Source of the DNA: a bacterium
GTDB taxonomy: Bacteria; Patescibacteriota; Patescibacteriia; 2-12-FULL-60-25
Direction: 5' to 3'
Assembly: GCA_021806685.1 (NCBI GenBank)
Contig: JAJZQU010000001.1
Coordinates: forward strand, 1 to 61,393
DNA length: 61,393 nt
The notes beneath the pieces were generated by a model. The model was given only the letters and a program-made list of their open reading frames with translations. It did no database searches and was not told the origin of the DNA. The position numbers were made by a program, and so were the translations under genes. Shown one piece after another: positions 11,069 to 36,315 of this stretch; positions within the stretch are counted from its first letter, which is position 1; every line of letters begins with the position of its first letter.

Positions 11069-11079
11069 ACGTACGTTTT

Positions 11080-11592: not shown

Positions 11593-11607
11593 TGATTAAG
11601 TTAGAAA

Positions 11608-11636
11608 ACACCCCCGCATTGCGGGGGTGTTTTATT
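11608..11636 (+). terminator. Intrinsic terminator after pilA
   Basis: 10-bp stem ACACCCCCGC/GCGGGGGTGT with loop ATT, followed by TTTATT. Confidence 0.75.
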
Positions 11637-11662
11637 ATCTACCGGCTGGGCCGAGTCTGATG

Positions 11663-11668
11663 TATAAT
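11663..11668 (+). promoter_or_regulatory. -10 hexamer TATAAT, 8 nt upstream of the ATG at 11677
   Basis: Read directly. No SD. Confidence 0.4.
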
Positions 11669-11676
11669 GTCGAAGT

Positions 11677-12141: not shown

Positions 12142-12145
12142 AAGC

Positions 12146-14774: not shown

Positions 14775-15576
14775 GTTACGCGGCAATATCACGGCTTTTG
14801 CCATTATCCTGGTGGCCATGGTCTTGTTGTTGGGAATTGCAGTCGGCGTAGTGGTGATGGAAGGCTCGCGCCGCGCCATAGAGACTGACCGGGCGATCGG
14901 AGCCTATTACATGGCTAACTCCGGCATTGAGATGCAGCTTTATGATGTGCGTAAAAACTCTGCCAGGCTTTCAGATGAGGCTACGGCAGCCAGCATTTAT
15001 CCTGGAGGATCGAGCTGGAAGTCAACAACGGGTTATGAAACCTCGACGGTTAAGACCATCCCGCTTTTGGGGGAAGAAGAATTATCTTTTGTTGATTTAT
15101 TTGACCCGGACAACATCGGACAGCAATCAAATGTGGCTTCGGCCAACCTGACCTGGGATGCTGGTACGGTTGGTTGCCAGCCTGATTTGGAAATCGGTTA
15201 CACTGTTTGGGATGTTGGCGTGACAGTCACCTGGCCTACGAATGCGGCAGATTACATCATTGTTATTGCCCCTTATGCCTCGCATCTGGGTTTTAATGTC
15301 GGTTCATTGGATGTGACAAAAGCCTATCGCATGCGCATTAGGCCTTTAAAATGCAGTGCCAGAGACATCAATATCTCCTTGCTGAACAGTTTGAGCCAGC
15401 CCTTGGCTTATCCGGGCGACATAACCCTTGGTTCAGAAGGTTCATACCAAAAAACCACCCAGCGCCTCCGCGTCACCATGCCGCGCCAAGACATTTTGTC
15501 CGGCATCTTCAGCTATATCGTTTTCTCGCAAGAGCAACTCTGTAAGCGGGTTGGGGGAGCAGGGATTTGCCCTTAG
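14764..15576 (+). CDS. PilX-like/minor pilus protein (N-terminal hydrophobic helix, no cleavage motif)
   Basis: MYDKLRGNITAFAIILVAMVLLLGIAV, and it is the last gene of the operon. The internal ATG at 14764 is used. Confidence 0.45.
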   Translation: MYDKLRGNITAFAIILVAMVLLLGIAVGVVVMEGSRRAIETDRAIGAYYMANSGIEMQLYDVRKNSARLSDEATAASIYPGGSSWKSTTGYETSTVKTIPLLGEEELSFVDLFDPDNIGQQSNVASANLTWDAGTVGCQPDLEIGYTVWDVGVTVTWPTNAADYIIVIAPYASHLGFNVGSLDVTKAYRMRIRPLKCSARDINISLLNSLSQPLAYPGDITLGSEGSYQKTTQRLRVTMPRQDILSGIFSYIVFSQEQLCKRVGGAGICP

Positions 15577-24696: not shown

Positions 24697-25356
24697 ATGG
24701 ACCAAGCAGACAAGACAAGACAGCTATTCCTGGCAGGAGCCATTATCCTGGGCGCTTTGATTGTCGGTGGTTTGGTTTGGGCTATTGCCATGGGCCCAGG
24801 CCAAAGCAATGGCAGTATTGATGCCAACATTGTTTTTAATGATGATACGAACCCAGTCCAAGGGCCGTCAGATGCCAAGGCCACTGTCCGCATTTATAGC
24901 GATTTCCAATGCCCGGCTTGCAAGGCTGCCGAGGCGCCTTTGCGCCAAGTGATGAAAGATTACGAAGGCAAAGTGCGTTTCATTTGGAATGATTTTCCGC
25001 TCATGTCATTGCATGCCAATTCCAAGTCAGCGGCCATTGCCGGCCGCTGCGCCCAAGAGCAGGGCAAATTTTGGGAGTTTGCCGCCAAGCTTTATGATTC
25101 ACAGGAACAATGGTCAACCTTGCCCGCTCCCAGTGATTTTTTCATAAATCTGGCTGACAGCCTTGCTTTGGACAAGGAGCACTTTGCGGCTTGCTTGGGC
25201 CAGGATGCGCCGGCCGCCAAGGTTATAGGGGATTATCAAGAAGCTATGGGCATGGGTTTGGATTCAACGCCCAGCTTTTTCGTGAACCGGCAAAAATATG
25301 TTGGTGTCCTGGATGTCAATACTTGGCACCAAGTTTTGGATGCGCAACTCAAATAG
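24697..25356 (+). CDS. Membrane-anchored DsbA/thioredoxin-fold thiol:disulfide oxidoreductase
   Basis: N-terminal TM and a CPAC active site (DFQCPACK). Confidence 0.8.
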   Translation: MDQADKTRQLFLAGAIILGALIVGGLVWAIAMGPGQSNGSIDANIVFNDDTNPVQGPSDAKATVRIYSDFQCPACKAAEAPLRQVMKDYEGKVRFIWNDFPLMSLHANSKSAAIAGRCAQEQGKFWEFAAKLYDSQEQWSTLPAPSDFFINLADSLALDKEHFAACLGQDAPAAKVIGDYQEAMGMGLDSTPSFFVNRQKYVGVLDVNTWHQVLDAQLK

Positions 25357-25466
25357 CCCCTTAAGTCACAGATAGGTTTGACAATTGGTTACGCGGACAT
25401 GAAAATGTAGCAACTAAGACCATTAGGTCTGTTGATAAAATTATCCACAGTTAACTATTTCACTTT

Positions 25467-26246
25467 ATGGAGAACGAAGACCAGCCCAAAGAATCGATGG
25501 GTTTTTGGCAGGCGAATCCTAAGACAATGTTTGCCCTGGGGCTCATCACCGGCGTGGCAGTCATGGCCGTGATCGCCTTGGGCTTCATCTTAAACTTCTT
25601 GCTTTCAGGCAAGAACGTCAGTGCTTTGACGGCTAACAATCAGCAAGTCGCCCAACAGCCAGCCGCCCAGCAACCAACCAATAATCCGACTGCCCAACAG
25701 CCAGCAACCCCTTCCCAGCCTCCCAAGGCAGTTGATGAGGCCAAGGATCATATCTGGGGCCCAAAGACAGCCAAGGTGACATTGATCGAATATGCTGACT
25801 TTGAATGTCCGTATTGCGCCAAGCATTTTGACACTATGGAGCAAATCAAAAAGGCTTATCCCAATGATGTAAGGATTGTCTATCGCCATTTCCCGCTCTC
25901 ATTCCACCCCAATGCCGAGAAAGCAGCCGAAGCTTCGGAATGCGCCGCGGCCCAAGGCAAGTTCTGGGAAATGCATGACAAGATTTTTGCTGCTAAAAAA
26001 GCTGGCACGATGAGCGTTGATGCTTGGAAACAGGCAGCTAAAGATTTGGGTCTGAATACTGACAAGTTTGACAAGTGTCTGGATAGCGGGGAGATGGCTA
26101 GTGTCGTAGCCGCTGACCAGGCAGAAGGCTCAAATGCCGGCGTAGGCGGCACACCAGCCACCTTTATCAACGGTACTTTGGTGGAAGGTGCTTTGCCTTT
26201 CGATTCCTTCAAGACCCAGATCGAAGCAGCCGGAGCCAAGAACTAG
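25467..26246 (+). CDS. Membrane-anchored DsbA/thioredoxin-fold thiol:disulfide oxidoreductase
   Basis: N-terminal TM, a Q/P-rich linker and a CPYC active site (DFECPYCAKH). Confidence 0.8.
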   Translation: MENEDQPKESMGFWQANPKTMFALGLITGVAVMAVIALGFILNFLLSGKNVSALTANNQQVAQQPAAQQPTNNPTAQQPATPSQPPKAVDEAKDHIWGPKTAKVTLIEYADFECPYCAKHFDTMEQIKKAYPNDVRIVYRHFPLSFHPNAEKAAEASECAAAQGKFWEMHDKIFAAKKAGTMSVDAWKQAAKDLGLNTDKFDKCLDSGEMASVVAADQAEGSNAGVGGTPATFINGTLVEGALPFDSFKTQIEAAGAKN

Positions 26247-26255: not shown

Positions 26256-26280
26256 CAAAAAAAGACCGGGTAACCGGTCT
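26256..26280 (-). terminator. Intrinsic terminator for the minus-strand surface-protein operon
   Basis: AGACCGG-GTAA-CCGGTCT hairpin, followed on the minus strand by a T7 run. Confidence 0.6.
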
Positions 26281-26282
26281 CA

Positions 26283-26321: not shown

Positions 26322-28277
26322 CTAGCTTGCAGCCAGTTGGGATAAGTTTAGGGTTTTGTCTATAACAGTAGGTTCTTTGCTTAGAGGGCTGGCTATTGGT
26401 TCGCTTCGCAAGAGTTGGTAGCCCTCTTTGACAGCAGTTACGTAAAAATCTCCATGGCCAACCAGAAAAGCATACCGGCCTTTAGAGTCGCTGATTTGGG
26501 TTTCCAAGACACGGTTAAAGCGGGTATCCATAATGCGCACGACAGCATTGTGGATGGGTTTGCCTGTCTTGGCATCCTTGATCACCCCGTAAGTTGGAGG
26601 TTTCTTTTGGAGCGTCAACCGGCGGAACATCAAATAAGACAGAACCTGGAAAATAAATAATCCAAGATAGGCGTAACTTGGGGATAGCACAAAGGTGCCA
26701 AAAGCAATGGCCGTTGAGGTTAGGGCCAAGTATCTCAAGATTTGTTTTAGGGTCTTTTTACGTTTTAAATCCTTTAATGGAGCGAGTTGCTCTTGCGGAT
26801 CAAGTGGAATATTCTTGGCGATGACAGTGTCATTGTCCAGATTCAATTTAGGCGTTGTCAACAGTTCTTCGAATGGCAAGTCTTGCGTTTGGCCAACCAA
26901 TAAAGTTGTTGGGAAAGTAAAACCTTTTTTGGCAGTCTCCAAGGTATATTGCCCTTTATCAACCAAAAAGTAATACCTGCCTTGGGCATCGGTTATCTTG
27001 GTCTGCAAGGTTTTACCAGAGTCATCTATAACCCTGACAGCCGCCAAATCAACAGGTATCTTGCTCAAGCTGTTGTAGACAACCCCATATTTCCTTCTTT
27101 TTTCGCGGGTAAACAACAGTAAGGGTTGGGTAAAGAGGAAGAATAAATAATTAAAAAGGGCTGTAGAGCCGGCTGCAGCCGTTACAGTCGCAATGCCGGC
27201 TGCAGCTAAAGCTGGCACGGCTGCTGCTTGGACTTGCGGTTCAGCCAGGGTTTCTTGGACTTGTTCTGTTGTTTGGATGATTTGGCGACCTGCCTTGCTT
27301 TCAGAAAACGAGGTAACAGCTTTCCGGATATCCGTCATCACGCCCCGGGTTACCGAGGTGATATCCCTGGCCAAGGGTTCAAGGGCTTTTGGAACAGGCA
27401 CGTTGAAGATCGTGGGAGGCGGCTGCCCGGCACCAGCACCCGGTTGTGCTTCAGGGCCAGGGGTTATTTGAGGCTGCCCGCCTTCTGTTGGAGGCGTCGT
27501 GATTCCACCTCCTCCTTGTTCAGTTCCTGCCCCAACTCCTGGGATGACACCCGGTAACTCTGCTGGGCCGGTTTCTTCAGACGGAGGAGTGGTTCCAGGT
27601 GGTAATTGTCCTTCCGGAGGGGGAGTTGGTGGAACCGGAGTCACTGGAGGTGTTGGAGTTGGCGTGGGAGGCGTGGGAGTCTCCGGTGGAGGCGTTGGAG
27701 TTGGGGTTGGTTCTGGTGTCGGTTCCGGTGTGGGGGTTGGGGTCGGGGTTGGTGTGGGAGAAGGGGGAGTTGAGCCACCTGTCCCGCCACCTCCGGCGCT
27801 GCCACCGCCGCCACCAGATGGCCTGACGGCACATGGTCGCCAGTCAGTCCTGACGTTGCAGTTAGTGCAAGAAAAATTGATTTGACCAGCTAAAGTTCCG
27901 GCTGTTCCGCCGGTGCCAACAAATACTCCCGATGTACTAATGGTCACTCCGCTCATGTTTATCCAGCCTAATTGGCTGGACCAAGCATAACCGCTTAAAA
28001 TGCCGCCGCAATTATTTATTACGCTGACAAGATTGGGACTGAAATTGATCCAACCGAAATTGTCGCTCCAGGCATAACCCGTGATGGCTGTATCAGTGAT
28101 TGTCAGGCCTCCGTTGGTTGGGAGAAAATTAATCCAACCCAATTTGTCTCCCCAAGCGTATTTATCGGGGTCAATGATTGAGCCAACAGAAAGTGAAGCA
28201 CTAGCCTTGTAAGGGAAGACTAGGCCGATAGCTGCCGTTAAAGCGCAAAGGCTTATGATTTTAACCCAGACAGGCAT
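26322..28277 (-). CDS. Surface/membrane protein: signal peptide, GYAWSxxxGWINF repeats, Pro-Thr linker, TM segments and two carboxypeptidase-regulatory-like domains
   Basis: YAWGDKLGWINF, GYAWSDNFGWINF and GYAWSSQLGWINM repeats, then a PTPTPTP.. linker. DAQGRYYFLVDKGQYTLETAKKGF and DSKGRYAFLVGHGDFYVTAVKEGY each follow hydrophobic helices. Confidence 0.75.
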   Translation of the reverse strand: MPVWVKIISLCALTAAIGLVFPYKASASLSVGSIIDPDKYAWGDKLGWINFLPTNGGLTITDTAITGYAWSDNFGWINFSPNLVSVINNCGGILSGYAWSSQLGWINMSGVTISTSGVFVGTGGTAGTLAGQINFSCTNCNVRTDWRPCAVRPSGGGGGSAGGGGTGGSTPPSPTPTPTPTPTPEPTPEPTPTPTPPPETPTPPTPTPTPPVTPVPPTPPPEGQLPPGTTPPSEETGPAELPGVIPGVGAGTEQGGGGITTPPTEGGQPQITPGPEAQPGAGAGQPPPTIFNVPVPKALEPLARDITSVTRGVMTDIRKAVTSFSESKAGRQIIQTTEQVQETLAEPQVQAAAVPALAAAGIATVTAAAGSTALFNYLFFLFTQPLLLFTREKRRKYGVVYNSLSKIPVDLAAVRVIDDSGKTLQTKITDAQGRYYFLVDKGQYTLETAKKGFTFPTTLLVGQTQDLPFEELLTTPKLNLDNDTVIAKNIPLDPQEQLAPLKDLKRKKTLKQILRYLALTSTAIAFGTFVLSPSYAYLGLFIFQVLSYLMFRRLTLQKKPPTYGVIKDAKTGKPIHNAVVRIMDTRFNRVLETQISDSKGRYAFLVGHGDFYVTAVKEGYQLLRSEPIASPLSKEPTVIDKTLNLSQLAAS

Positions 28278-28282
28278 AAGGA

Positions 28283-31200
28283 TTAGTTGGATGTAGACGT
28301 AGCCTGATCCTGGGCAGTAGTAACAGGAACGTCAACCGGTTCCGAGGAAGGAGTGCTAGTCGTTGTAGGTGTTGGCGCAGGAGGAGTTGTTGTCACTGTT
28401 GGGCTGGGATCTGGAGCCGGCGTGTAATCCGGAGGTGGGTTGATATAATCCGGGAAGGACTGGTTATTATTGTAAAGTGCCTGCCAATTAAAGATAACAT
28501 CTTTAGGTTGCGCAAAAGCCAGGTGGATTTCAAAACCCGTGGCGCTAACTTTTTCTATCCAATAAGGGCCCTCGATCTTGTCCATGGGAGTGACGGTCAC
28601 AACGGGTATGTCATTAAAGGGTAACTTGAAAATTACAGGTATGACGTCTTGGCTTAGGAGAAATTTTGCCTGACCGGCTTGTGATTCCACGACAGGCTGC
28701 ATTGGGCCAAGAGGTGTGTTAGCAAATAGTGATTGATTTTCTTTCAGGCTATTGATTTGGTCCTGTTGTTCCTTAATGGCTTCGATTATTAAGGGCGTGA
28801 ATTTCGTGTAATCGAGTTGGAAATATTGGACATCCTTGTCGCCGACTGTTTCTAAAGATAACGCTTCGGGAAAAATCTTTTGGACATCTTGGGCAATCAA
28901 GCCGACCGTATGTTCATGGCCCTTGAAACGGGAGATTAAAGGATAGTGCTTTAAAACTTCCGGGTCGTCCGTTTTCCAATCATAAGTTACGCCCGTTAAC
29001 TGCATTATTTTATTTAATGCACCATCGATTTCTAAAGTGTTCTTTTTCAGACGGGCATCAGACTCATTGGCTATGCAACTTGAGGCATTGCCATCATTAT
29101 TGGTATCTACGCAAACCGTGTCACCTTTCACTTCGACCCGGCCTTGGTCAGGGATTGTTGTCCCAATCCCAAGGTTGCCGTTGTTACTAACTGTTATGTA
29201 TTGGTTTTCCAAGCCCCTGCTGATTGTGAATCCGGTGTTAGCTTGCCACAAATCCCAAGTACTAGTCCCGATGTGGGTACTGCTGACATAAAGGTCCTTC
29301 CAACGATTATCCGAAGATCCCAGGTCATATGTTAAGTTTGCATCCGGCCCCACATTACCTGCAATTTGGAGTTTAAAATTCGAGGGGTTTGATGTGCCAA
29401 TGCCAACATTGCCGTTACCGTCAATCGTCAACCTGTCATTTGTGCCAAGGACTGTAGATGAAGAAATTTTAAACCTGCCGCCATCTGTTTTATCAACGCC
29501 GATCGACCAATGATAGAAATTCGAGTTATCTGTTGAAGTTGCCACAAACCCAAGGTCACCATCTGCGCGGTTGGCATTGCCGGCTATGATAACGCGGTTG
29601 GAACCGCCTATGCTTGGAGTCCAGCCAAAGAAAGAATTATTATAATTGTTAATTAGTAATGGGTAATTGCTAAGATTATCGGCTACTGCTAATAAAGCAC
29701 CCGCGCCTGTTGCTTTGTTTTGGAGGACAAATGCCGCAGCGGTGTTCTGCGTGGCATTGGCATACATGTAACCTGATGTGGCAAAAGAAAAGTTACCTGA
29801 ACCCTGCGAGTTGCCGGAATAAATGGTTGATGAAGCATAGGCACTCCTCCAAGCATGTTGGTAGGAGCCTAAGTCATACGAGTTTGTTGATGAAGGGGCT
29901 ATTGTACCGGCCACTGTAAGCCTATAAAGATATGGGTTGGTAGTTCCAATGCCTATATCAATCTTGCCTGCTTCGTTGGGTGAGCCTTTCAAGGTCAGTC
30001 CATTCATCAGATCTCCATTGTTGTCCCTAACGCTTAAGGTCAGCCTGCCGCAAATCCATAGGCCACAGTCTGATCTGGTATAAATCTTGCCAAAATTAAA
30101 AGTGTCAGTTGTTCCGGGATAATTGCTGTAGAAATCAATGGCCGCAGCATAAGCCAAGCCGGGTGTTGAAGCGCTGGATGATAATTTGAGGAGTGCGTTA
30201 TCGGTATTTAGTTGGTTTATTGAAAGTTTGTTATTGATAGCTCCATCGCCTATGGCCGCACCGTTGAAGTCAACTTTGAAAAAACTGCTGCCCACATCTA
30301 GGGTGCTGCTGGCGTAAATGCCTCGCCAGGCATTTGTATTAGAACCTAAATCATACGAATTAGTTATGGTCGGGTTGATACTGCCTGTTGAGGTTGCTCC
30401 GGCAAACCGAATCCACTTATTGGTTGTCGCCCCCTGGTCGGTAACTTGTTGGAAGTTTGGGTTGGCTATCACCTCTGTGCCATTAATCAGGAGTTTTGAT
30501 GTTGAGATGTAGCCATCAGCATCGATATTGGTTGAGCTGACATGTTTGACGAATAGTTTTTTCCAATACAGTGAACTAGTGCCAAGATCGTAAGTATTAT
30601 CAACGCCAGGCGAAAAACCGCTTGCATCAATTTTAGAGCGCACAGCGCCGCCAGTGTAAAAACTTATCGGCGAGCTTGCCCCGTTTAAAATATTCAATCC
30701 CGTGTTTGAGCCGCCCGCAAAAAGATTCACGAAATCACCCCCGCCTGTTCCATAGGCGTTAATTGAAAAATAGGCATCGTCTGACAGCACTTGTAATACG
30801 GCACGCGCTGACGCACCGGCACTGTTATTTGTTATTTTTAGGCTGTTGTCAGTGTTCTTTCCGGCGGTACTACCGAGGGTCATGTTACCGGCCGCATCTA
30901 TAAAACCCTGTTGAGTTGAGCTTGTATAGAAATTTATTGGCGCAGCCGAATTATTCATTATATTCAAGCCTGTATTGTTTTGAGCTGTGAGGTTCACATA
31001 GCCCCCGGCGGCACCTGGTTTTGCGGTAATTCTCAAATCAGCTCCACCGGAAGCTGGAACCCCTGCAAAAAGATGGATAAATGAATCTGCAGTCACGCTC
31101 TCTTGGCGGTTGTAGACCAGGATGCCCGTTGCTGTATTATTGTTTCTTTCAATATGAACAAAATCATCGGGATTGCTTGGTGCAACGTTTCCAATACCAA

Positions 31201-31873
31201 CTCCATATTGGTTGACTTGGAACATAGTATCACCGTTCACGGCAGAACTTAGGGGAGTGCCTCCTGCGCTTGGGTCAATAAACTTGCCATTAACCGCATA
31301 TAAGGTGCTACTGGCGTAGATGTTTTTCCATGATTTTGTGGCCGAACCCAAATCAAATGAGCCATTAGTCGTTGGAATGATATTTCCAGTCGAAGAAGCA
31401 CCAGTAAATCCTATCTGGTGAGTTGTGAAGTATCCTTGGTTTGTCACTTGCTGCAGAGTTGGGACATTCGATGTGACCGGAGAACCATTTACCCAAAGAG
31501 CCGTCGTTGAGACATAGCCCAGAGCATCAATGTTTGTCGAGCTGACGTTTTTGGCAAAAAGTTTATGCCAATAATTACTCACCTCGCCCAAGTCATAAAG
31601 GTTATTGGACGTCGGTAAGATGTTGGCAGTAGTTGAGACGCCGTTAACACGTATTGGCCTATTGGTTGTATAGCCTTGATCAGTGATGTTTTGGAGAGTA
31701 TAAGGCGCAACCGTACAATTGATTTGGGTAGGGGAGCATTCAGGGTTAAGGGTTGAGCCGGGTGTATATGGCTGGCCGTTCCAGACCGCTTGGACCGTGT
31801 GCGCAAAAAACAAAGTTGAAGCCAATCCAACTATAATAATGCCATTCCGTATGACCGGTTTTATCAAAGGCAT
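28283..31873 (-). CDS. 1196-aa tail-fibre-like surface protein with a peptidase-S74 intramolecular-chaperone domain and an H-type-lectin-like C-terminal module
   Basis: It has a signal peptide and six-fold recurring Y/FDLG(S/T)xxxxW(K/R)xx(Y/F) units. SDARLKKN..GVTYDW..VGLIAQDVQKIFPE..LDYTKFTPLIIEAIKEQQDQINSLKE at 28736..29064 matches the endosialidase-chaperone pattern. VIFKLPF..PVVTVTP...VSATGFEIHL...FNWQAL at 28463..28669 follows. Confidence 0.75.
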   Translation of the reverse strand: MPLIKPVIRNGIIIVGLASTLFFAHTVQAVWNGQPYTPGSTLNPECSPTQINCTVAPYTLQNITDQGYTTNRPIRVNGVSTTANILPTSNNLYDLGEVSNYWHKLFAKNVSSTNIDALGYVSTTALWVNGSPVTSNVPTLQQVTNQGYFTTHQIGFTGASSTGNIIPTTNGSFDLGSATKSWKNIYASSTLYAVNGKFIDPSAGGTPLSSAVNGDTMFQVNQYGVGIGNVAPSNPDDFVHIERNNNTATGILVYNRQESVTADSFIHLFAGVPASGGADLRITAKPGAAGGYVNLTAQNNTGLNIMNNSAAPINFYTSSTQQGFIDAAGNMTLGSTAGKNTDNSLKITNNSAGASARAVLQVLSDDAYFSINAYGTGGGDFVNLFAGGSNTGLNILNGASSPISFYTGGAVRSKIDASGFSPGVDNTYDLGTSSLYWKKLFVKHVSSTNIDADGYISTSKLLINGTEVIANPNFQQVTDQGATTNKWIRFAGATSTGSINPTITNSYDLGSNTNAWRGIYASSTLDVGSSFFKVDFNGAAIGDGAINNKLSINQLNTDNALLKLSSSASTPGLAYAAAIDFYSNYPGTTDTFNFGKIYTRSDCGLWICGRLTLSVRDNNGDLMNGLTLKGSPNEAGKIDIGIGTTNPYLYRLTVAGTIAPSSTNSYDLGSYQHAWRSAYASSTIYSGNSQGSGNFSFATSGYMYANATQNTAAAFVLQNKATGAGALLAVADNLSNYPLLINNYNNSFFGWTPSIGGSNRVIIAGNANRADGDLGFVATSTDNSNFYHWSIGVDKTDGGRFKISSSTVLGTNDRLTIDGNGNVGIGTSNPSNFKLQIAGNVGPDANLTYDLGSSDNRWKDLYVSSTHIGTSTWDLWQANTGFTISRGLENQYITVSNNGNLGIGTTIPDQGRVEVKGDTVCVDTNNDGNASSCIANESDARLKKNTLEIDGALNKIMQLTGVTYDWKTDDPEVLKHYPLISRFKGHEHTVGLIAQDVQKIFPEALSLETVGDKDVQYFQLDYTKFTPLIIEAIKEQQDQINSLKENQSLFANTPLGPMQPVVESQAGQAKFLLSQDVIPVIFKLPFNDIPVVTVTPMDKIEGPYWIEKVSATGFEIHLAFAQPKDVIFNWQALYNNNQSFPDYINPPPDYTPAPDPSPTVTTTPPAPTPTTTSTPSSEPVDVPVTTAQDQATSTSN

Positions 31874-32004: not shown

Positions 32005-33090
32005 TTATAGCTTTTTGTAGCCCCTAAAAGCTGAAAATTGATCTTTGGCGATTGATATCAAACGGTTTGTAGTTTTGCTGATCTCATCCTTAATATATTT
32101 GGCGTTGCCATATTGCGAAGGGTAGCCAACCAATTCCATAAAACCAACACCTTTAGTTTTATGGCCTTCGAAAATACCTTCCACGCGCAGTGGGCCTTCC
32201 CAATAGTTAATAGTGCCAAATAGCATCTCCTGGTTTTCAACCTCGGCAGTCAATTTCAAGTCAATATTTTTTGCTGGTATTTTTACGTTCCAATCTAAGG
32301 GAAAGACTGTTTGGGTTTTAGGACTGACCCATTGCCGGCCAAGAGGGACCATTTTGACATCTTGATAATGCTCCTGCTCACCGTTGGGATAGGAGATGTC
32401 GGCCCAATAAGTTTTTACCTGGCCATCATCATACTTGTAACAGACTATTTCTGTGTCATCCTCCAATTGTATTGAAAACCAATCCCATTTGTCTTTGGAA
32501 TAGCTCGTATCAGCCCATTGGTGGTCCATCCACGATTTGCCAGTGACATCCACCCACCCATCTTTGGTTTTCATCCGACCTTCTGTTCTTAGGTTGGTCA
32601 AGGAATAGTAATAGGTTGTTTTGGAGTTGAGTTCGAGATAACCTTTGCCGCCTTCGAGCAGGGGGTTTTTAATGGAAGTCAGCGTCAAATCAAGATCTTC
32701 GTTTTTTAAATGGTAGGTTGTCTTGTCTATTTTTTCGATGGCACAGTTGATGTAGTTGTTTTTAAGTTCAGGGTTGAGGTAGTTGATATAGAGCAGGGGC
32801 TTGGAAAAACTATCAGCCGAAATGATGGAAAAAGGGGATATTCTTTCAGAAAACTTCTTTTTGTTTATATCAGAGATAAGGGAATGGGAAAAATAAGTTG
32901 TTTTGAGCGGTATCTTGCTTAAGAATGGTATTTTGACTTTCTTGACATCTGCCTTGAACAGGCAGTCCATGAACGAATATTCAAGGCCGCTTTTATCCGT
33001 GAGGTGGCCGTTAAAATACCACCACTCGATTATGCAATCATGGGACGACTCATCTTCCGGGAATTTTATGGGTTGAAATTCTTTGCGCAT
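32005..33090 (-). CDS. CrtC/AttH-like lipocalin-domain protein (hydroxyneurosporene-synthase family fold)
   Basis: The N-terminal FPEDESSHDCIIEWWYFNGHL matches the family signature. Composition is AT-rich. Confidence 0.6.
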   Translation of the reverse strand: MRKEFQPIKFPEDESSHDCIIEWWYFNGHLTDKSGLEYSFMDCLFKADVKKVKIPFLSKIPLKTTYFSHSLISDINKKKFSERISPFSIISADSFSKPLLYINYLNPELKNNYINCAIEKIDKTTYHLKNEDLDLTLTSIKNPLLEGGKGYLELNSKTTYYYSLTNLRTEGRMKTKDGWVDVTGKSWMDHQWADTSYSKDKWDWFSIQLEDDTEIVCYKYDDGQVKTYWADISYPNGEQEHYQDVKMVPLGRQWVSPKTQTVFPLDWNVKIPAKNIDLKLTAEVENQEMLFGTINYWEGPLRVEGIFEGHKTKGVGFMELVGYPSQYGNAKYIKDEISKTTNRLISIAKDQFSAFRGYKKL

Positions 33091-33190: not shown

Positions 33191-33278
33191 GGAGAGGTCG
33201 CATAGAGGCCTAGTGCACACGCTTGGAAAGCGTGCATACCGCAAGGTATCGAGGGTTCGAATCCCTCCCTCTCCGCCA
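33191..33278 (+). tRNA. tRNA-Ser (anticodon GGA), encoded CCA end
   Basis: Acceptor stem GGAGAGG/CCTCTCC, anticodon stem-loop CACGC-TTGGAAA-GCGTG, long variable arm CATACCGCAAGGTATC, and T arm GAGGG-TTCGAAT-CCCTC. Confidence 0.9.
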
Positions 33279-33282: not shown

Positions 33283-33307
33283 AAAGCCCGCCATTAGGCG
33301 GGTTTTG
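33283..33307 (+). terminator. Intrinsic terminator after tRNA-Ser
   Basis: GCCCGCC-ATTA-GGCGGGT hairpin plus TTTT. Confidence 0.6.
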
Positions 33308-33356
33308 TGGTGTGTGTTAACATAATCACGCTTAATAACTCACTTTCCATAAAAAC

Positions 33357-34022
33357 ATGTTAAAAAAGATTATTTTGCCGGCTTTGTTGTTTTTAGTGAG
33401 CGGTTTTATCGCCCAAGTGGCCAGCGCTGTCCCGGCCGCCCCCAGCCCCACATGTGAGATTAAAGCCACTATCTTAAATGTCGCAAAAAAGACAACAAAT
33501 GTTAATAGATCAGAGGAAGTGCCAATAGATTATTACGCGGTTAAATTAAAGATAGAAACAAGTTCAACCTATCAGCAAGATGGCAGCGGCTCTTGTGAAG
33601 ACCTGGCGGACCAGGAAGTAAACTCGGTTGTCACTTTAAGTGAGTATGAAAAAACTCCAGTCAAAGCCGGCCAGGAAGTTGGAGCCAGAATCCACTATGG
33701 TGGAGATGAGCGGTTGGGTGGGTATTTTTTGACCAACGTTGAGATCCTGAAGGTGGGCGTGCCAACTGTCGAAGAGGATGAAGAATCCGCCATTAAGAGT
33801 TCCAAAGAAGTATCCGACATGTTGGTTGAGCAGAAGCAACTCAAAACAGTTGAGGATATAAAATTAGATTCGGATAAGAAGCAGTATTCAGCAACTGGTT
33901 ATCGCAACGCCAAGCTCTTATTCTTTATCCCAATATCACTCAAGGTTGAATTAAAGATTGACGCGTTGACAGGCGATATTAAGCAAATAAACAAACCTTG
34001 GTGGGGTTTCTTGGTCAGATAA
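33357..34022 (+). CDS. Secreted hypothetical protein
   Basis: Signal peptide (LLFLVSGFIAQVASA). The C-terminal ..KIDALTGDIKQINKPWWGFL resembles PepSY-like ends, though only weakly. Confidence 0.6.
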   Translation: MLKKIILPALLFLVSGFIAQVASAVPAAPSPTCEIKATILNVAKKTTNVNRSEEVPIDYYAVKLKIETSSTYQQDGSGSCEDLADQEVNSVVTLSEYEKTPVKAGQEVGARIHYGGDERLGGYFLTNVEILKVGVPTVEEDEESAIKSSKEVSDMLVEQKQLKTVEDIKLDSDKKQYSATGYRNAKLLFFIPISLKVELKIDALTGDIKQINKPWWGFLVR

Positions 34023-34030
34023 ATCTATTT

Positions 34031-34534
34031 ATGCCCATTTGCATCACTTTTGCCGGTCCGGTTGGCAGCTCCAAGACGCCTATTGCCACTTATTTGAGTT
34101 GGAACCTGGGTCTTCCCATCTTTAACAACGATGCAATTCGGAGTGAGGTGGCTGAGGATTTGGGAAAATATGACGTCGAAGTCTACAAACAGCGACAAAA
34201 AGAAAGAGCGACGAAGTTGATTGAATCCGGGATTTCTTGCATTATTGATGCCAGCGTTGACAGGTCGTGGCCCGAAGTAAAACCAAGGTTGCAAGCGAAA
34301 GGATATAAGTGTTTTGTTATCAGTTTGGATCTGAGTAAAGAGCTGATGGAAAAGCTTCATAAAGCTAAGGGCTACAATGAATCGCTCGAAAGGCTAGAAT
34401 CAATTATGGCTGATCATGAGAATTTTTTGTCGCAGTTTAAGGATGAGGTGGGTATATCCATTACTGATGAGAATTTTGGACAGAGGTTGGAACTCTGCCT
34501 TCAGGTGGTGAGGGAGTGGAGGAGGAATGATTAG
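34031..34534 (+). CDS. Small P-loop NTPase/kinase-like protein
   Basis: Walker A FAGPVGSSKT at the N-terminus. The ATG at 34031 is chosen over ORF-track start 33998. Confidence 0.6.
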   Translation: MPICITFAGPVGSSKTPIATYLSWNLGLPIFNNDAIRSEVAEDLGKYDVEVYKQRQKERATKLIESGISCIIDASVDRSWPEVKPRLQAKGYKCFVISLDLSKELMEKLHKAKGYNESLERLESIMADHENFLSQFKDEVGISITDENFGQRLELCLQVVREWRRND

Positions 34535-34543
34535 TATAAAATT

Positions 34544-35326
34544 ATGAATGGATTAACTAAAAAAATTCAATTTGAGAAAAAGGATTTACTTCTAAGGTTG
34601 AAAGTATTTTTAGTTTTTTTATTTTATTGGACAACGTTGTTTATTGTAATTTGTTTGTTATTTAACAAAGTCATTAGTTTTATTTTATTAAAAATGAATA
34701 GCATAGAATCGATTGTGCTGTTAAATTTGTCAGGTGCGATTTTTTTTATTTTTATTTTATTTTATCTCTTAGCACAAGGAAAATTAAAAATATGGCTTGA
34801 CGCTAACCAAGGTTTTCTCGTAGTTGTGGGTATATGGTTTACAGTTATTATTTATTTGTTAGACAATTCTGTTTATAGATTAACAATTTTAGCATCAGAT
34901 ATCGACTATTATAACAAAACAGAAAAGCTCTTGATATTAGAAAATAGTAGTAATTTAAAATCAATAGGCAGTATGGTGACAGATCTTGAGAATGATCCTA
35001 CCGCACTAGTTTGGTCGGACTTTTCGGTACAAGATTATGAAAAATACACTGAACATTTTATTGCATACTACACGCCAGAATGTCAAAATAAATATGGAGA
35101 GTTAAAATTAAATTTAGACGCTATAAACAAATTAAATAAAATGAAACGTGAGGGTATCTACCTTTATGATTCTACGCGAGCTGATCTTACAGGCAAAATA
35201 ATTTTATTTTCAAATATCTCAAAAAAGATTTTAGGTGAATTGGAATCTTGTAGCGGTACTAAGATTGTTACAATACCAAGATGGTTTCCTCTGCCAGAAG
35301 GAATAACATTTAAAGAGAAGAGATGA
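34544..35326 (+). CDS. Hypothetical membrane protein (very AT-rich gene)
   Basis: Three or four hydrophobic helices, then a ~150-aa soluble domain. No family recognised. Confidence 0.55.
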   Translation: MNGLTKKIQFEKKDLLLRLKVFLVFLFYWTTLFIVICLLFNKVISFILLKMNSIESIVLLNLSGAIFFIFILFYLLAQGKLKIWLDANQGFLVVVGIWFTVIIYLLDNSVYRLTILASDIDYYNKTEKLLILENSSNLKSIGSMVTDLENDPTALVWSDFSVQDYEKYTEHFIAYYTPECQNKYGELKLNLDAINKLNKMKREGIYLYDSTRADLTGKIILFSNISKKILGELESCSGTKIVTIPRWFPLPEGITFKEKR

Positions 35327-35392
35327 TGCGTTTATTTGAACGAAATCGAAGTTAACGTCCGGGTCAATGATTCCTAAACCATTATCAATTAT

Positions 35393-35656
35393 ATGCTATC
35401 TCTAAAGAAAAAAATTGGAATAGGTCTGATTATCACGCCGATAGTATCTTTCCTTTTACGTTATCCGGTTATCTGGATAGGGATATACTTTCTTGGCAGG
35501 ACCAATGGTTCTGAGGAGGTGGCTAAAATTACCGGTTATTCTTTCGCTATATTGAGTTTTATTACGGCAGTGACTTTGGTCTTCATCCTTCCGTTCGGTA
35601 TCATATTGCTGATCACCCCGGATTCAACAACTTCGAAAACAGATCAAGAAAAATAG
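35393..35656 (+). CDS. Small hypothetical membrane protein
   Basis: 87 aa, with two or three hydrophobic helices. Confidence 0.45.
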   Translation: MLSLKKKIGIGLIITPIVSFLLRYPVIWIGIYFLGRTNGSEEVAKITGYSFAILSFITAVTLVFILPFGIILLITPDSTTSKTDQEK

Positions 35657-35661
35657 TAACC

Positions 35662-36315
35662 ATGATGTCTATCGACTTAATCACCCAAACCGCGGAATAC
35701 GTCAAAGCCACCATGGCCCAGGAAGGCACTGGCCATGATTGGTTTCATATCGAAAGAGTTTGGCGTTTGGCTAAGACCATCCAAGCCCAAGAGGGCGGTA
35801 ATCTTGAGGTTGTCGAACTAGCGGCCTTATTGCATGATATTGCTGATTGGAAATTCAGTGATGGTGATGAGAATGCCGGCCGGCGCGTCTCCCGTGAATG
35901 GCTGGTTCAGATTGGCGCAACTTCGCGGATCGTTGATCTTGTTTGTGAAATTGTCGGAGATTTATCTTATAAAGGTTCGGGCGTGCCGGATGAGATGAAG
36001 ACTCTAGAAGGCCAAATCGTCCAAGATGCTGACAGACTGGATGCGATTGGAGCCATCGGTATTGCTCGTTGCTTTGCTTATGGTGGTTACAAGAATATGC
36101 CATTGTATGATCCGGATATAAAACCAGGCGTGCATACCAGCTTTGATGAGTATAAGAAAAAGAAGGGGACAACGTTTAATCATTTTTACGAGAAACTCTT
36201 TTTATTGAAAGATCGTCTGCATACTCGTGCTGCCAAGAAGATCGCGCAAGGTCGGGATAGTTATATGCGGGAATTTGTAGGCAGGTTTTTAAAAGAGTGG
36301 GAGGCAAAAGATTAA
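35662..36315 (+). CDS. HD-domain phosphohydrolase
   Basis: GHDWFHIERV, LLHDIADWK and DADRLDAIGAIGIARCF. Confidence 0.85.
   Translation: MMSIDLITQTAEYVKATMAQEGTGHDWFHIERVWRLAKTIQAQEGGNLEVVELAALLHDIADWKFSDGDENAGRRVSREWLVQIGATSRIVDLVCEIVGDLSYKGSGVPDEMKTLEGQIVQDADRLDAIGAIGIARCFAYGGYKNMPLYDPDIKPGVHTSFDEYKKKKGTTFNHFYEKLFLLKDRLHTRAAKKIAQGRDSYMREFVGRFLKEWEAKD

What the first reader, a model, noticed from the sequence alone, without database searches (positions are those of the whole stretch)
26322..31873. Phage-tail-fibre-like 1196-aa protein co-operonic with a multi-TM surface protein, in a non-prophage context
The upstream gene (31873..28283, minus strand) has a signal peptide and an internally duplicated fibre-like body. 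The motif xYDLG(S/T)xxxxW(K/R)xxY recurs six times. Two ~350-aa modules repeat the string ..YDLGxxSxYWxKLFxKxVSSTNIDAxGY(V/I)ST..L.(V/I)NG.... A peptidase-S74 (endosialidase intramolecular chaperone) domain follows. Five nt downstream begins a 651-aa protein with a signal peptide, GYAWS..GWINF repeats, a Pro-Thr stalk and two units of [TM helix plus carboxypeptidase-regulatory-like beta-sandwich]. No capsid, terminase, portal, baseplate or integrase genes are nearby; the neighbours are dsbA-like genes and a lipocalin-like gene. A cellular, trimeric fibre anchored or exported by the partner protein would be a plausible host-attachment organelle for an epibiotic small-genome bacterium. I am not aware of such a system having been characterised.
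Basis: partly seen in the sequence, partly recalled or inferred. Interest (0 to 1): 0.75.

Follow-up and report, generated by a model that had tools for sequence, protein, structure and literature searches.

The report
Cellular tail-fibre-like adhesin with membrane partner
A tiny-genome (Patescibacteria) bacterium carries, in its own chromosome and not in a prophage, a two-gene operon for a phage-tail-fibre-like surface fibre and a conserved membrane protein that recurs beside such fibres; the fibre resembles the prey-recognition fibres recently described in the predator Bdellovibrio.

Summary
Gene A (28283-31873, minus strand) encodes 1196 aa. It has a signal peptide, six YDLG-type motifs, an internal duplication (aa 87-191 vs 422-525, 59% identity) and a Peptidase_S74 domain with an intact SDARLK Ser/Lys dyad. 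After the S74 domain come an H-lectin-like sandwich and a Pro/Thr tail.

Gene B starts 5 nt downstream. It encodes a signal peptide, a 'GWINF' beta-hairpin head, a Pro/Thr stalk, transmembrane helices and two CarboxypepD_reg sandwiches.

The locus is chromosomal. The A-B pair sits between tRNA-Ser and dsbA-dsbA-lgt-gatCA in three related lineages, and no phage genes occur in the 61-kb window.

A is mosaic between strains, whereas B evolves at the housekeeping rate. In four of six independent B-family lineages an S74 protein lies directly upstream. This supports a functional pairing.

A profile of A and its homologues hits the Bdellovibrio MAT fibres (Bd2133, E=1e-21). MAT fibres are cellular S74 and non-S74 trimeric adhesins described in 2024.

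New here are the phylum, the YDLG stalk module, the domains after S74, and the recurrent partner B. B may be the cell-side dock that is still unidentified for MAT fibres. Host attachment and docking are inferred, not shown.

The parts
28283..31873 (-). Gene A: 1196-aa secreted, mosaic, S74-chaperoned fibre protein (MAT-like / tail-fibre-like)
   Evidence: ORF; Pfam S74; PHROG tail-fibre hits; profile hits to Bdellovibrio MAT fibres and phage fibres
31787..31873 (-). A aa 1-29: signal peptide (K5, R9, 14-aa hydrophobic core, VQA|V)
   Evidence: Hydropathy and reading of the sequence; cleavage is inferred. Conserved in P0002-P0004
31700..31786 (-). A aa 30-58: conserved N-terminal cap WNGQPYxPGSTLNPECxPTxxNC with a Cys46/Cys53 pair
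   Evidence: Near-invariant in all four fibre orthologues, including the 50%-identical P0004. The same motif occurs on an LVIVD-S74 protein in L038 and on the L035 fragment
31274..31699 (-). A aa 59-200: first double YDLG module (motifs at aa 93 and 173)
   Evidence: the module recurs up to 27 times in giant Patescibacteria proteins
30611..31273 (-). A aa 201-421: beta-rich spacer with an internal repeat (275-329 ~ 364-419) and a VGIGxxxP capping-loop-like motif at aa 225
   Evidence: This segment is replaced in P0002, which is part of the mosaicism
30284..30610 (-). A aa 422-530: second double YDLG module (motifs at aa 428 and 507)
   Evidence: 59% identical to aa 87-191, E=2e-34
29063..30283 (-). 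A aa 531-937: distal stalk / predicted beta-helix with (V/I/L)GIGTxxP capping-loop motifs at aa 640, 823, 901, YDLG motifs at aa 666 and 849, and Cys pairs 603/608 and 921/933
   Evidence: profile homology to Bd2133, Bd3182, Bd1334 and Bd2439 structures; Foldseek hits to 8OML and 8OND
28721..29062 (-). A aa 938-1051: Peptidase_S74 intramolecular chaperone / autoprotease with S938-K943 (SDARLK) and a C-terminal helix (1022-1051)
   Evidence: Pfam E=4e-16; 6F45 alignment; AF2 pLDDT 88-96; Foldseek MyRF ICA 7DC3, TM 0.68
28466..28696 (-). A aa 1060-1136: H-type-lectin-like beta-sandwich lying after the S74 domain
   Evidence: AF2 pLDDT 72-83; Foldseek Helix agglutinins 4Q56/2CCV (TM 0.53, E~7e-3), pyocin R2 fibre and Pam1 tailspike tip; Pfam H_lectin E=0.049, below cutoff. 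The domain recurs at the C-termini of giant YDLG proteins
28286..28465 (-). A aa 1137-1196: Pro/Thr/Ser-rich C-terminal tail with no hydrophobic anchor
   Evidence: Sequence. Analogous S/T/P tails end the S74 partners in L007, L036 and L038
26322..28277 (-). Gene B: 651-aa membrane protein of a large Patescibacteria family
27822..28196 (-). B aa 28-152: 'GWINF' head, three ~29-aa aromatic beta-hairpin repeats plus a 4-Cys cap
   Evidence: AF2 pLDDT ~95; 3628 representative clusters; no Pfam, PDB or viral relative
27390..27821 (-). B aa 153-296: disordered Pro/Gly/Thr stalk
   Evidence: Composition P48/G28/T27 of 150 residues; pLDDT below 50
27108..27389 (-). B aa 297-390: two amphipathic helices, an Ala-rich helix (350-365) and TM helix 371-388
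26793..27089 (-). B aa 397-495: CarboxypepD_reg / transthyretin-like sandwich 1
   Evidence: Pfam E=2e-16; pLDDT above 90; Foldseek carboxypeptidase D TTR domain and CnaB
26613..26774 (-). B aa 502-555: helical TM hairpin flanked by conserved Lys/Arg clusters
26340..26591 (-). B aa 563-646: CarboxypepD_reg-like sandwich 2
26262..26281 (-). Terminator-like hairpin plus T-run downstream of B; no terminator lies between A and B
32005..33090 (-). AttH/CrtC-type double-lipocalin gene on the same strand, 131 nt upstream of A. It is a loosely associated third gene: downstream of B in L003 and L004, absent in L001
33191..33278 (+). tRNA-Ser(GGA) bordering the locus. The tRNA-to-fibre interval takes insertions in relatives
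24697..26246 (+). Two DsbA-like thioredoxin genes, convergent with B and syntenic in L001 and L004. They are possible oxidative-folding helpers for the Cys pairs of A and B (inference only)

Best explanation
A and B form a chromosomal, co-transcribed and probably translationally coupled operon of a Patescibacteria bacterium.

Gene A encodes a Sec-exported protein. It is predicted to trimerise from its C-terminal S74 intramolecular-chaperone domain, fold into a long beta-helical, fibre-like stalk, and autocleave at S938|D939. The mature fibre would be about 909 aa. It has a conserved N-terminal cap and a strain-variable, recombining middle and distal part. In other words, it is a cell-surface adhesin of the same kind as Bdellovibrio MAT fibres and phage tail fibres.

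Gene B encodes a conserved membrane protein. Its GWINF head is held outside the cell on a Pro/Thr stalk that could span the wall. Its two transthyretin-like sandwiches are predicted to be cytoplasmic.

B-family genes recurrently follow S74 proteins, and both B and the fibre's N-cap are conserved while the fibre body is swapped. From this I infer that B is the cell-side partner of the fibre, either a dock or an assembly platform.

What is shown: the domain content, the homologies, the non-phage context, the synteny, the mosaicism and the recurrent gene pairing.

What is inferred: trimerisation, autocleavage, surface display, the A-B contact, B's topology and a role in attachment to a host cell.
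For: S74 domain and fibre homology:
- The S74 domain has an intact Ser/Lys dyad.
- A profile of A and its homologues hits Bd2133 (8OND, E=1e-21), Bd1334, Bd3182 and Bd2439, plus phage fibres and the MyRF ICA domain.
- Foldseek agrees with these hits.
- The YDLG motif is also found in a cyanophage fibre (8I4M) and a phage tailspike (6EU4).

Cellular context:
- The A-B pair sits at the same chromosomal site in L001, L004 and the window. Its neighbours are 70-98% identical.
- No phage genes occur in 61 kb.
- The GWINF head is absent from 2.9 M viral contigs.

Mosaicism:
- A aa 1-688 is 90% identical to P0003, and aa 405-1196 is 80% identical to P0002. The remainder is replaced.
- B is 88-90% identical between these strains, which is the housekeeping baseline.
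- The N-terminal 125 aa of the fibre are conserved in all four orthologues.

Pairing:
- An S74 protein lies immediately upstream of a B-family gene in the window group, L007, L036 and L038. That is four of the six independent lineages examined.
- The upstream bodies differ (YDLG fibre, capping-loop beta-helix, LVIVD propeller).

Operon structure:
- The spacer is 5 nt, with no terminator between A and B and one after B.

Topology of B:
- Lys/Arg clusters flanking the TM helices are conserved across 68 homologues.
Against: - No direct evidence exists for an A-B contact, for trimerisation or for surface display.
- The AF2 monomer model of the stalk is low-confidence (mean pLDDT 51), so the beta-helix is inferred from homology only.
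- The pairing is not universal. L037 has a B-family gene with no S74 neighbour. In L005 and L006 the upstream giant carries its own TM-CPD anchor.
- Most giant YDLG-module proteins have no adjacent B.
- The GWINF head occurs on thousands of other proteins. It may therefore be a general wall-binding or lectin module rather than a fibre dock.
- About 150 aa follow the S74 domain, including a lectin-like domain and a Pro/Thr tail. This is atypical for S74 fibres, and cleavage would release them, so the polarity of the fibre is uncertain.
- Whether this organism is an epibiont is unknown.
Confidence: 0.55

Rival explanations
1. A and B are two independent surface proteins that merely share a 'surface-protein operon'. 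Under this view B is a membrane-to-wall tether or a lectin of its own, with GWINF acting as a general non-covalent wall- or glycan-binding module like SLH, GW or choline-binding repeats. The fibre would attach to the cell by other means, or would be released.
For: - GWINF heads occur on more than 3600 protein clusters with many different C-terminal parts, including dockerin, fn3, Big and LPXTG-like regions.
- The head is very conserved (50-65% identity), which suits a conserved self ligand.
- B-like genes also follow a giant that has its own TM-CPD anchor.
- L037 has a B-family gene with no S74 partner.
Against: - S74 proteins lie directly upstream in four of six lineages, even though S74 genes are rare and the upstream bodies are unrelated.
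- The spacers are tight, at 4-5 nt, in the window and in L038.
Confidence: 0.25
2. The fibre has reverse polarity, or is released in a MyRF-like way. The C-terminal fragment (S74, lectin-like sandwich and Pro/Thr tail) would be the cell-proximal part, embedded in the wall or bound to B. S74 autocleavage would then release the N-terminal fibre into the medium or onto a target.
For: - Domains follow S74 here, as in MyRF, where cleavage frees the N-terminal trimer from a membrane-bound C-terminal part (7DC3 hits; MyRF biology is from general knowledge).
- Pro/Thr-rich segments usually span walls.
- All S74 partners of B-family genes end in S/T/P tails.
- The feature shared by all upstream partners is the S74 and tail end, not the body.
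Against: - In phage and MAT fibres the N-terminus is proximal and the S74 domain is discarded (PMC10769870).
- The N-cap is the most conserved part of A and is shared with L038's partner.
- The lectin-like domain sits at the free C-terminus of giants that lack S74, which looks like a tip.
Confidence: 0.12
3. The locus is a prophage, tailocin or eCIS remnant: a stranded tail-fibre gene with its assembly or anchor gene.
For: - PHROG tail-fibre hits.
- The locus abuts a tRNA-Ser that takes insertions.
- In L003 a large serine recombinase and CI/Cro-like genes lie just beyond that tRNA.
- A has a slightly lower GC content than its flanks.
Against: - The same pair lies at the same site in lineages whose housekeeping proteins are only 70-90% identical, without any recombinase in the window, L001 or L004.
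- No capsid, terminase, portal, baseplate, sheath or tube genes occur in 61 kb.
- A has a Sec signal peptide, which virion fibres lack.
- The B head is absent from IMG/VR, and the YDLG module gave one weak viral hit.
Confidence: 0.04
4. A is mainly an enzyme (a tailspike-like depolymerase) or a released lectin used to process host or environmental glycans, rather than an adhesin.
For: - S74 domains were first described on endosialidases and occur on depolymerase tailspikes.
- Foldseek touches tailspike tips (7EEA, 4RU4) and H-type lectins.
Against: - No catalytic-domain family hit anywhere in A.
- The matched tailspike parts are small C-terminal sandwiches, not catalytic beta-helices.
Confidence: 0.04

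Closest known systems
Bdellovibrio bacteriovorus MAT (mosaic adhesive trimer) fibres: S74 subgroup such as Bd3182, non-S74 such as Bd2133 (Caulton et al. 2024, PMC10769870)
   Same: - Both are cellular and chromosomally encoded, about 1000 aa, with a signal peptide.
- Both have a conserved N-terminal region, a beta-helical stalk with GIGTxxP-type capping loops, and swappable distal parts.
- S74 (SDxxxK) and non-S74 variants exist in both (P0003 has only a degenerate S74).
- Profile-level homology: 8OND at E=1e-21, plus 8OML, 8OJN, 8OL4 and 8ON4.
- Both organisms live off other cells (lifestyle is inferred here).
   Different: - The phylum and envelope differ: a monoderm-type Patescibacteria bacterium here, a diderm predator there.
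- The stalk here is built from YDLG double modules.
- A lectin-like domain and a Pro/Thr tail follow S74 here.
- There is one fibre at a tRNA-flanked variable locus, rather than 21 paralogues.
- A conserved downstream partner gene (B) is present here. The MAT paper states that the surface element binding the MAT N-domain is unidentified.
- Homology of the N-terminal domains was not tested.
Phage tail fibres and tailspikes with a C-terminal intramolecular chaperone (K1F endosialidase 3GW6, T5 pb1 4UW8, S16 gp37 6F45)
   Same: - An S74 domain with a Ser/Lys dyad.
- An upstream triple-beta-helix type stalk.
- The YDLGxxxxxW motif also occurs in cyanophage P-SCSP1u gp28 and in tailspike 6EU4.
- Mosaic evolution.
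   Different: - Here there is a Sec signal peptide and no virion genes.
- The chromosomal position is syntenic across lineages.
- Extra domains follow S74.
MyRF (myelin regulatory factor) ICA domain
   Same: An S74/ICA fold (Foldseek TM 0.68; profile E=8e-12), with further domains C-terminal to the ICA.
   Different: MyRF is a eukaryotic ER-membrane transcription factor. Nothing else is shared.
Non-covalent wall-anchoring repeat modules of monoderm bacteria (SLH, Listeria GW modules, choline-binding repeats) as an analogy for B's GWINF head
   Same: Short aromatic (Gly-Trp/Tyr) beta-hairpin repeats placed right after a signal peptide on many otherwise unrelated surface proteins. This is an analogy from general knowledge.
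   Different: - No sequence or profile similarity was detected.
- The ligand is unknown.
- B additionally has its own transmembrane anchor.

Membership tests
Peptidase S74 / intramolecular chaperone auto-processing (ICA) domain | Sequence match to PF13884 above the gathering score | tested here: met
   E=4.4e-16, 59.4 bits against a cutoff of 22, aa 938-1004
Peptidase S74 / intramolecular chaperone auto-processing (ICA) domain | Catalytic Ser-Lys dyad in an S-D-x-x-x-K motif at the start of the domain | tested here: met
   S938-D-A-R-L-K943
Peptidase S74 / intramolecular chaperone auto-processing (ICA) domain | ICA fold with a C-terminal trimerising helix | tested here: met
   AF2 pLDDT 88-96 for aa 940-1050, helix at 1022-1051; Foldseek MyRF ICA 7DC3, TM 0.64-0.68
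Peptidase S74 / intramolecular chaperone auto-processing (ICA) domain | Autoproteolytic release after trimer folding | not testable with these tools
   Needs expression of wild type against S938A
Peptidase S74 / intramolecular chaperone auto-processing (ICA) domain | The domain is the C-terminal end of the protein (typical of phage and MAT members) | tested here: not met
   About 145 aa follow it: an H-lectin-like sandwich and a Pro/Thr tail. MyRF is a precedent for downstream domains
MAT (mosaic adhesive trimer) superfamily | Signal peptide; cellular, non-virion gene | tested here: met
   Leader at aa 1-29; syntenic chromosomal locus
MAT (mosaic adhesive trimer) superfamily | Beta-helical stalk homologous to solved MAT fibres, with capping loops | tested here: met
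   Profile A4 against 8OND at E=1e-21, 8OML at 9e-14, 8OJN at 5e-10, 8OL4 at 2e-7. (V/I/L)GIGxxxP motifs lie at aa 225, 640, 823 and 901. The match is for the family profile, not for A alone
MAT (mosaic adhesive trimer) superfamily | Conserved ~130-aa beta-rich N-terminal domain of the Bdellovibrio type | not tested
   A has its own conserved N-cap and first module. No Bdellovibrio N-domain sequence was available for comparison
MAT (mosaic adhesive trimer) superfamily | Mosaic, swappable distal domains; S74 and non-S74 variants | tested here: met
   Segment replacement among A, P0002, P0003 and P0004. P0003 has only a degenerate S74
MAT (mosaic adhesive trimer) superfamily | Trimeric fibre displayed on the cell surface and binding target-cell epitopes | not testable with these tools
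   Only a monomer prediction was possible, and the stalk pLDDT was below 50
Prophage / tailocin / eCIS tail fibre | Encoded within a set of virion or contractile-tail structural genes | tested here: not met
   None in the 61-kb window or in the L001 and L004 flanks. Only L003 has a recombinase and repressor beyond the tRNA
CarboxypepD_reg (PF13620) domain proteins (gene B) | Pfam match above the gathering score and a transthyretin-like fold | tested here: met
   E=1.9e-16, 60.6 bits against 32.3, two copies; Foldseek carboxypeptidase D TTR domain, TM 0.73-0.80

The most novel reading that the evidence does not exclude
S74-type trimeric proteins together with a GWINF-head / TM-CPD membrane protein form a Patescibacteria-wide, two-component surface organelle. 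In this reading the B-type protein is the cell-side dock for MAT-like fibres, the component still unidentified in Bdellovibrio. Its cytoplasmic beta-sandwiches would couple fibre engagement with a host cell to the inside of the epibiont.
Probability: 0.15. Interest if true: 0.8.

Novelty: new variant of a known kind. Interest (0 to 1): 0.6.

Why it matters
How non-Saccharibacteria Patescibacteria recognise and hold on to host cells is essentially unknown. Type IV pili are the only characterised device.

This locus offers a concrete, testable candidate. It pairs a strain-variable fibre, homologous to the prey-recognition fibres of Bdellovibrio, with a conserved membrane partner. Neither the head domain nor the TM-plus-sandwich anchor module of that partner has been described.

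If the pairing is functional, it would identify the missing cell-side anchor for this class of cellular 'tail fibres'. It would also give a genomic marker for host-range variation in uncultured epibionts. In addition, it would define two large uncharacterised domain families: GWINF, with about 3600 representative clusters, and the TM-CPD anchor.

Tried and rejected
1. Diversity-generating retroelement or hypervariable repeats. The lead was a bAvd-like hit in L004's lgt gene. The repeat finder on 24-36 kb gave only chance-level short repeats and no reverse transcriptase is present, so I dropped it.

2. Locus search with the full-length alignment A1 failed because no conserved stretch was found. 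I replaced it with the module alignment A2.

3. A metagenome scan for the N-cap motif returned only one 1.6-kb fragment, so the A family proper could not be enlarged.

4. Viral scans. The YDLG module gave one weak hit and GWINF gave none.

5. The full-length AF2 monomer of A gave an unusable stalk (pLDDT below 50). Only the S74 domain and the C-terminal sandwich are interpretable.

6. Foldseek of B against the PDB and BFVD matched only the transthyretin-like sandwiches.

7. NCBIfam gave nothing for A and only noise for B.

8. The closest S74-region relatives (45-64% identical) turned out to lie on Rep3/relaxase/ParA plasmid-like elements without B. They are not informative for the pairing.

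9. A topology with extracellular CPD sandwiches was considered and judged less likely, because it would put all three conserved Lys/Arg clusters outside the cell.

10. Literature searches for the GWINF motif and for S74 fibres in Patescibacteria found nothing.

Full report
**1. Observation**

- Gene A is 28283-31873 on the minus strand and encodes 1196 aa.
- Gene B is 26322-28277 on the minus strand and encodes 651 aa.
- They are separated by 5 nt, TCCTT on the coding strand, with no Shine-Dalgarno sequence.
- No terminator-like hairpin lies between them. One follows B at 26281-26262.

Features of A:
- Six x[YF]DLG(4-7)W[KRH]xx[YF] motifs lie at aa 93, 173, 428, 507, 666 and 849.
- The motifs sit in homologous modules. 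Residues 87-191 and 422-525 are 59% identical (E=2e-34), at an offset of 335 aa. Residues 275-329 also resemble 364-419.
- Pfam Peptidase_S74 matches aa 938-1004 with E=4e-16 and 59 bits against a cutoff of 22.
- The domain begins with S938-D-A-R-L-K943, which is the Ser/Lys dyad.
- PHROG hits are to tail fibre and baseplate-wedge families, mostly over aa 730-1048.

Features of B:
- It has a leader peptide and three GYAWS..GWIN(F/M) repeats.
- It has a stretch of about 150 aa rich in Pro, Gly and Thr.
- It has two CarboxypepD_reg domains.

**2. Context: cellular, not prophage**

The whole 61-kb window is housekeeping DNA. In order it carries:
- recJ and a type IV pilus cluster (PilM, PilO, PilB, PilC, PilD and pilins; 2.2-15.6 kb);
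- ligA, an ABC transporter, gatCA, lgt and two dsbA genes;
- then B, A and an AttH/CrtC lipocalin gene, followed by tRNA-Ser(GGA);
- several unannotatable membrane proteins in a low-GC stretch;
- an HD hydrolase, uvrA, uvrC, Nramp, mraW, a Clp-type ATPase, recR and dnaB.

PHROG scans of the neighbours gave no structural hits.

Homologues of A were found in three other genomes.
- P0003 (L004) comes from a close strain whose housekeeping proteins are 89-98% identical to the window's.
- P0002 (L003) is on a short contig with no housekeeping genes to compare; its B protein is 89% identical to the window's.
- P0004 (L001) comes from a more distant relative, with housekeeping identity of 68-93%.
- In all of them an A-like gene is followed after 3-6 nt by a B-like gene.
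- In L001 and L004 the pair lies at the same site, between tRNA-Ser/uvrA and dsbA-dsbA-lgt-gatA-gatC-ABC-ligA.

The interval between the tRNA and the fibre gene is variable.
- L004 carries a 1542-aa SNF2-helicase/methyltransferase gene there.
- In L003 a large serine recombinase with CI(S24)/Cro-like genes abuts the tRNA.
- These insertions lie beside the A-B pair, not around it.

The prophage-remnant reading is therefore very unlikely.

**3. Anatomy of A**

From N- to C-terminus, A contains:
- A signal peptide, aa 1-29. It has K5 and R9, a 14-residue hydrophobic core and VQA|V. Cleavage is inferred.
- An N-cap, WNGQPYxPGSTLNPECxPTxxNC, with a Cys46/Cys53 pair.
- A double YDLG module, aa 59-200.
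- A beta-rich spacer.
- A second double module, aa 422-530.
- A distal stalk, aa 531-937. It has (V/I/L)GIGTxxP motifs at aa 640, 823 and 901, two more YDLG motifs and two more close Cys pairs.
- The S74 domain, aa 938-1051, including a long helix at 1022-1051.
- A small sandwich, aa 1060-1136.
- A Pro/Thr/Ser tail with no hydrophobic anchor.

The AF2 monomer model is confident only in two places. The S74 domain has pLDDT 88-96 and the C-terminal sandwich has pLDDT 72-83. The stalk is below 50, as expected for an intertwined trimer folded as a single chain.

Foldseek places the S74 domain on the MyRF ICA domain (7DC3, TM 0.68). It also returns Bd1334 (8OML) and Bd2133 (8OND). The C-terminal sandwich falls on H-type lectins (4Q56 and 2CCV, TM 0.53, E about 7e-3), on the pyocin R2 fibre and on tailspike tips. 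Pfam H_lectin scores E=0.049, below its cutoff. I therefore call the sandwich 'H-lectin-like' and no more than that.

**4. Relatives of A**

A profile built from A and 68 homologues hits solved structures as follows:
- Bdellovibrio MAT fibres: Bd2133 (8OND) at E=1e-21, 8OML at 9e-14, Bd3182 (8OJN/8ONB/8ONC) at 5e-10, 8OL4/8ONF at 2e-7, and 8ON4 at 6e-7.
- A phage tail fibre (8JOV), S16 gp37 (6F45) and MyRF (7DC3).

The YDLG module profile touches cyanophage P-SCSP1u fibre gp28 (…NNTYDLGTSSDRWRNVYT…, E=0.009) and tailspike 6EU4.

The MAT paper (PMC10769870) describes 21 Bdellovibrio proteins of about 1000 aa.
- They have a signal peptide and a conserved N-terminal domain.
- They have a meandering trimeric beta-helix with capping loops.
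- Their tips are swappable, either S74 (SDxxxK) or non-S74.
- They are displayed on the predator surface and bind prey glycans.
- The paper states that the surface element bound by their N-domain is unidentified.
- Its supplementary table lists MAT-like proteins in Uabimicrobium, Micavibrio and Omnitrophica, but not in Patescibacteria.

Cellular S74 fibres used by a bacterium that lives on other bacteria are therefore a known kind. A is a new variant of that kind.

**5. Mosaicism**

- A aa 1-688 is 90% identical to P0003 aa 1-689. The C-terminal half of P0003 is different, with only a degenerate S74 (E=0.0027).
- A aa 405-1196 is 80% identical to P0002 aa 616-1411, but aa ~200-404 is replaced.
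- P0004 shares about 50% identity over parts of the protein.
- The first 125 residues are conserved in all four orthologues.
- B is 88-90% identical (L003, L004) and 73% identical (L001) to the window's copy. That matches the housekeeping baseline.

A conserved base with a recombining body, next to a conserved partner gene, is the pattern expected of a receptor-binding fibre.

The YDLG double module is also a building block of giant Patescibacteria proteins.
- These proteins run from 2000 to more than 4600 aa.
- One protein can carry up to 27 copies of the module.
- They were found at 23 loci among GTDB species representatives.
- Many of them end in the same C-terminal sandwich without any S74 domain.

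**6. Anatomy and family of B**

The AF2 model (mean pLDDT 74) shows the following:
- an all-beta GWINF head, aa 31-150, pLDDT about 95;
- a disordered stalk, aa 156-318;
- amphipathic helices and a low-confidence Ala-rich helix, aa 350-365;
- a TM helix, aa 371-388;
- sandwich 1, aa 398-494;
- a helical hairpin, aa 502-531 and 535-555;
- sandwich 2, aa 564-645.

Foldseek matches only the transthyretin-like sandwiches, both in the PDB and in BFVD.

Across 68 homologues, Lys/Arg clusters are conserved at three positions: after TM 371-388 (4.5 per sequence), before TM 513-531 (4.6) and after TM 537-552 (3.1). The short connecting loops carry none. By the positive-inside rule this favours a three-TM topology with both sandwiches in the cytoplasm. 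This is an inference, and it is unusual for this fold.

The family is modular. The head and the TM-CPD module occur together or apart. The TM-CPD module also ends LVIVD/fn3/Big_13 giants of about 2000 aa.

The head alone defines a large family.
- It comprises 3628 representative clusters at E<=1e-3 and 1845 at E<=1e-10.
- It nearly always lies right after a signal peptide.
- It has no Pfam relative, no PDB relative and no viral relative.
- The literature search found nothing on it.

**7. Is the A-B pairing meaningful?**

I looked at the neighbourhoods of B-family genes in six independent lineages.

| Lineage | Gene immediately upstream of the B-family gene |
|---|---|
| Window group (4 genomes) | YDLG fibre with S74 |
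| L007 | LVIVD-repeat protein with S74 (Pfam E=1.7e-8), then a 132-aa membrane protein |
| L036 | 569-aa capping-loop beta-helix protein with S74 (SDRRLK), then an 88-aa protein; housekeeping context |
| L038 | 890-aa LVIVD protein with S74 (SDERLK), 4-nt spacer |
| L005/L006 | LVIVD giant with its own TM-CPD anchor; no S74 |
| L037 | No S74 protein nearby |

S74 genes are rare in any genome, and the B proteins in these lineages are only 25-58% identical to the window's B. Four of six is far more than chance would give. My rough estimate is a probability below 1e-6, assuming an S74 gene occupies about 1% of positions.

The upstream partners share three things: a signal peptide, an S74 domain, and a small post-S74 domain followed by an S/T/P-rich tail. 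Their bodies differ. The L038 partner also shares A's N-cap motif, PGxTLNP(E/D)C…C. So does a fragment in L035.

**8. Proposed mechanism**

Shown:
- the domain content and the homologies;
- the chromosomal, syntenic context;
- the operon structure;
- the mosaic fibre against the conserved partner;
- the recurrent pairing of S74 proteins with B-family genes.

Inferred:
- A is exported by Sec.
- Its S74 domains trimerise and nucleate folding of the stalk, then cut at S938|D939. This frees a 258-aa C-fragment that contains the lectin-like domain and the tail.
- The mature fibre stays on the cell because its conserved N-cap binds a conserved surface element.
- B is the best candidate for that element. 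It is membrane-anchored and presents its head at the end of a stalk long enough to cross the wall.
- The adjacent DsbA pair may form the close Cys pairs in both proteins.
- The variable stalk and distal part bind structures on another cell.

Weak points:
- The polarity of the fibre is uncertain. The conserved S74-plus-tail end could equally be the part that meets B, or that sits in the wall, giving a MyRF-like release.
- GWINF is so widespread that it could be a general wall-binding module.
- Nothing shows that this organism is an epibiont.

**9. Verdict**

The finding is a new variant of a known kind, with a partner gene that appears to be undescribed and two undescribed domain and anchor modules. 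Interest is moderate to high at 0.6. It offers a testable candidate for host recognition in uncultured Patescibacteria and a lead to the missing anchor of MAT-type fibres.

Noticed in passing
window 2195-15576 (+): A complete-looking type IV pilus gene cluster: PilM 4319-5392, PilO 6505-7209, PilB/T2SSE 7601-9343, PilC/T2SSF 9723-10934, prepilin peptidase 12146-12943 and N_methyl pilin-like genes. It lies 11-24 kb from the fibre locus. B-family genes in L007 and L038 also have a T2SSE ATPase gene or a pilin-like gene next to them.
   Followed up: partly
window 33191-33278; L003 2209-3864; L004 3846-9790: The tRNA-Ser(GGA) beside the locus is an insertion hot spot in relatives. In L003 a large serine recombinase with CI(S24)/Cro-like genes abuts the tRNA. 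In L004 a 1542-aa SNF2-helicase/methyltransferase and a PRTase-like gene lie between the tRNA and the fibre gene.
   Followed up: partly
window 33300-35700: A low-GC stretch (0.38-0.42, against about 0.50 elsewhere) encodes a 221-aa secreted protein, a kinase-like 178-aa protein and two membrane proteins. None has a family match. The 221-aa and 178-aa proteins are conserved in L004, so this is not a strain-specific island.
   Followed up: partly
window 27822-28196 (B aa 28-152): The GWINF head is an undescribed domain family. It has 3628 representative clusters at E<=1e-3 and is almost always placed right after a signal peptide. Its C-terminal partners vary widely and include dockerin, fn3, Big, an LPXTG-like region and TM-CPD. 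It has no Pfam, PDB or IMG/VR relative.
   Followed up: yes
L005 1846-7839; L006 2042-7984: LVIVD/fn3/Big_13 proteins of about 2000 aa end in the same TM-CPD-TM-TM-CPD module as B. The module therefore looks like a general C-terminal membrane anchor of Patescibacteria surface proteins. Its beta-sandwiches are predicted to be cytoplasmic.
   Followed up: partly
L009-L030: Giant proteins (2000 to more than 4600 aa) are built from up to 27 YDLG modules. Several of the carrying bins are labelled Thermoplasmatota, Gammaproteobacteria or Ignavibacteriaceae. These are probably mis-binned Patescibacteria contigs.
   Followed up: no
L032, L033, L034: Outside the family, the closest relatives of A's S74 region (45-64% identical) are 500-700-aa S74 proteins on plasmid-like elements with Rep3, relaxase/MobC and ParA genes. 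So S74 fibre genes also travel on plasmids.
   Followed up: no
window 32005-33090; L003 10706-11788; L004 15861-16943: The AttH/CrtC double-lipocalin gene is upstream of A in the window, downstream of B in L003 and L004, and absent in L001. It is only 76-78% identical, against a baseline of about 90%. It has moved and diverged along with the variable locus.
   Followed up: partly
L007 aa 325-355; L036 aa 500-535; L038 aa 745-790 of the S74 partner proteins: The S74 partners of B-family genes that lack the lectin-like domain carry instead a two-Cys motif of about 35 aa after S74 (…TGexYCv…G….G.C), followed by an S/T/P tail. It is an undescribed small domain.
   Followed up: no
L004 18648-19775; L035 535-921: Four-helix-bundle 23S_rRNA_IVP/bAvd-like ORFs lie near fibre loci. 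In L004 the ORF is fused to, or mis-called with, lgt. No reverse transcriptase or template/variable repeat pair was seen, so there is no evidence for a diversity-generating retroelement.
   Followed up: partly
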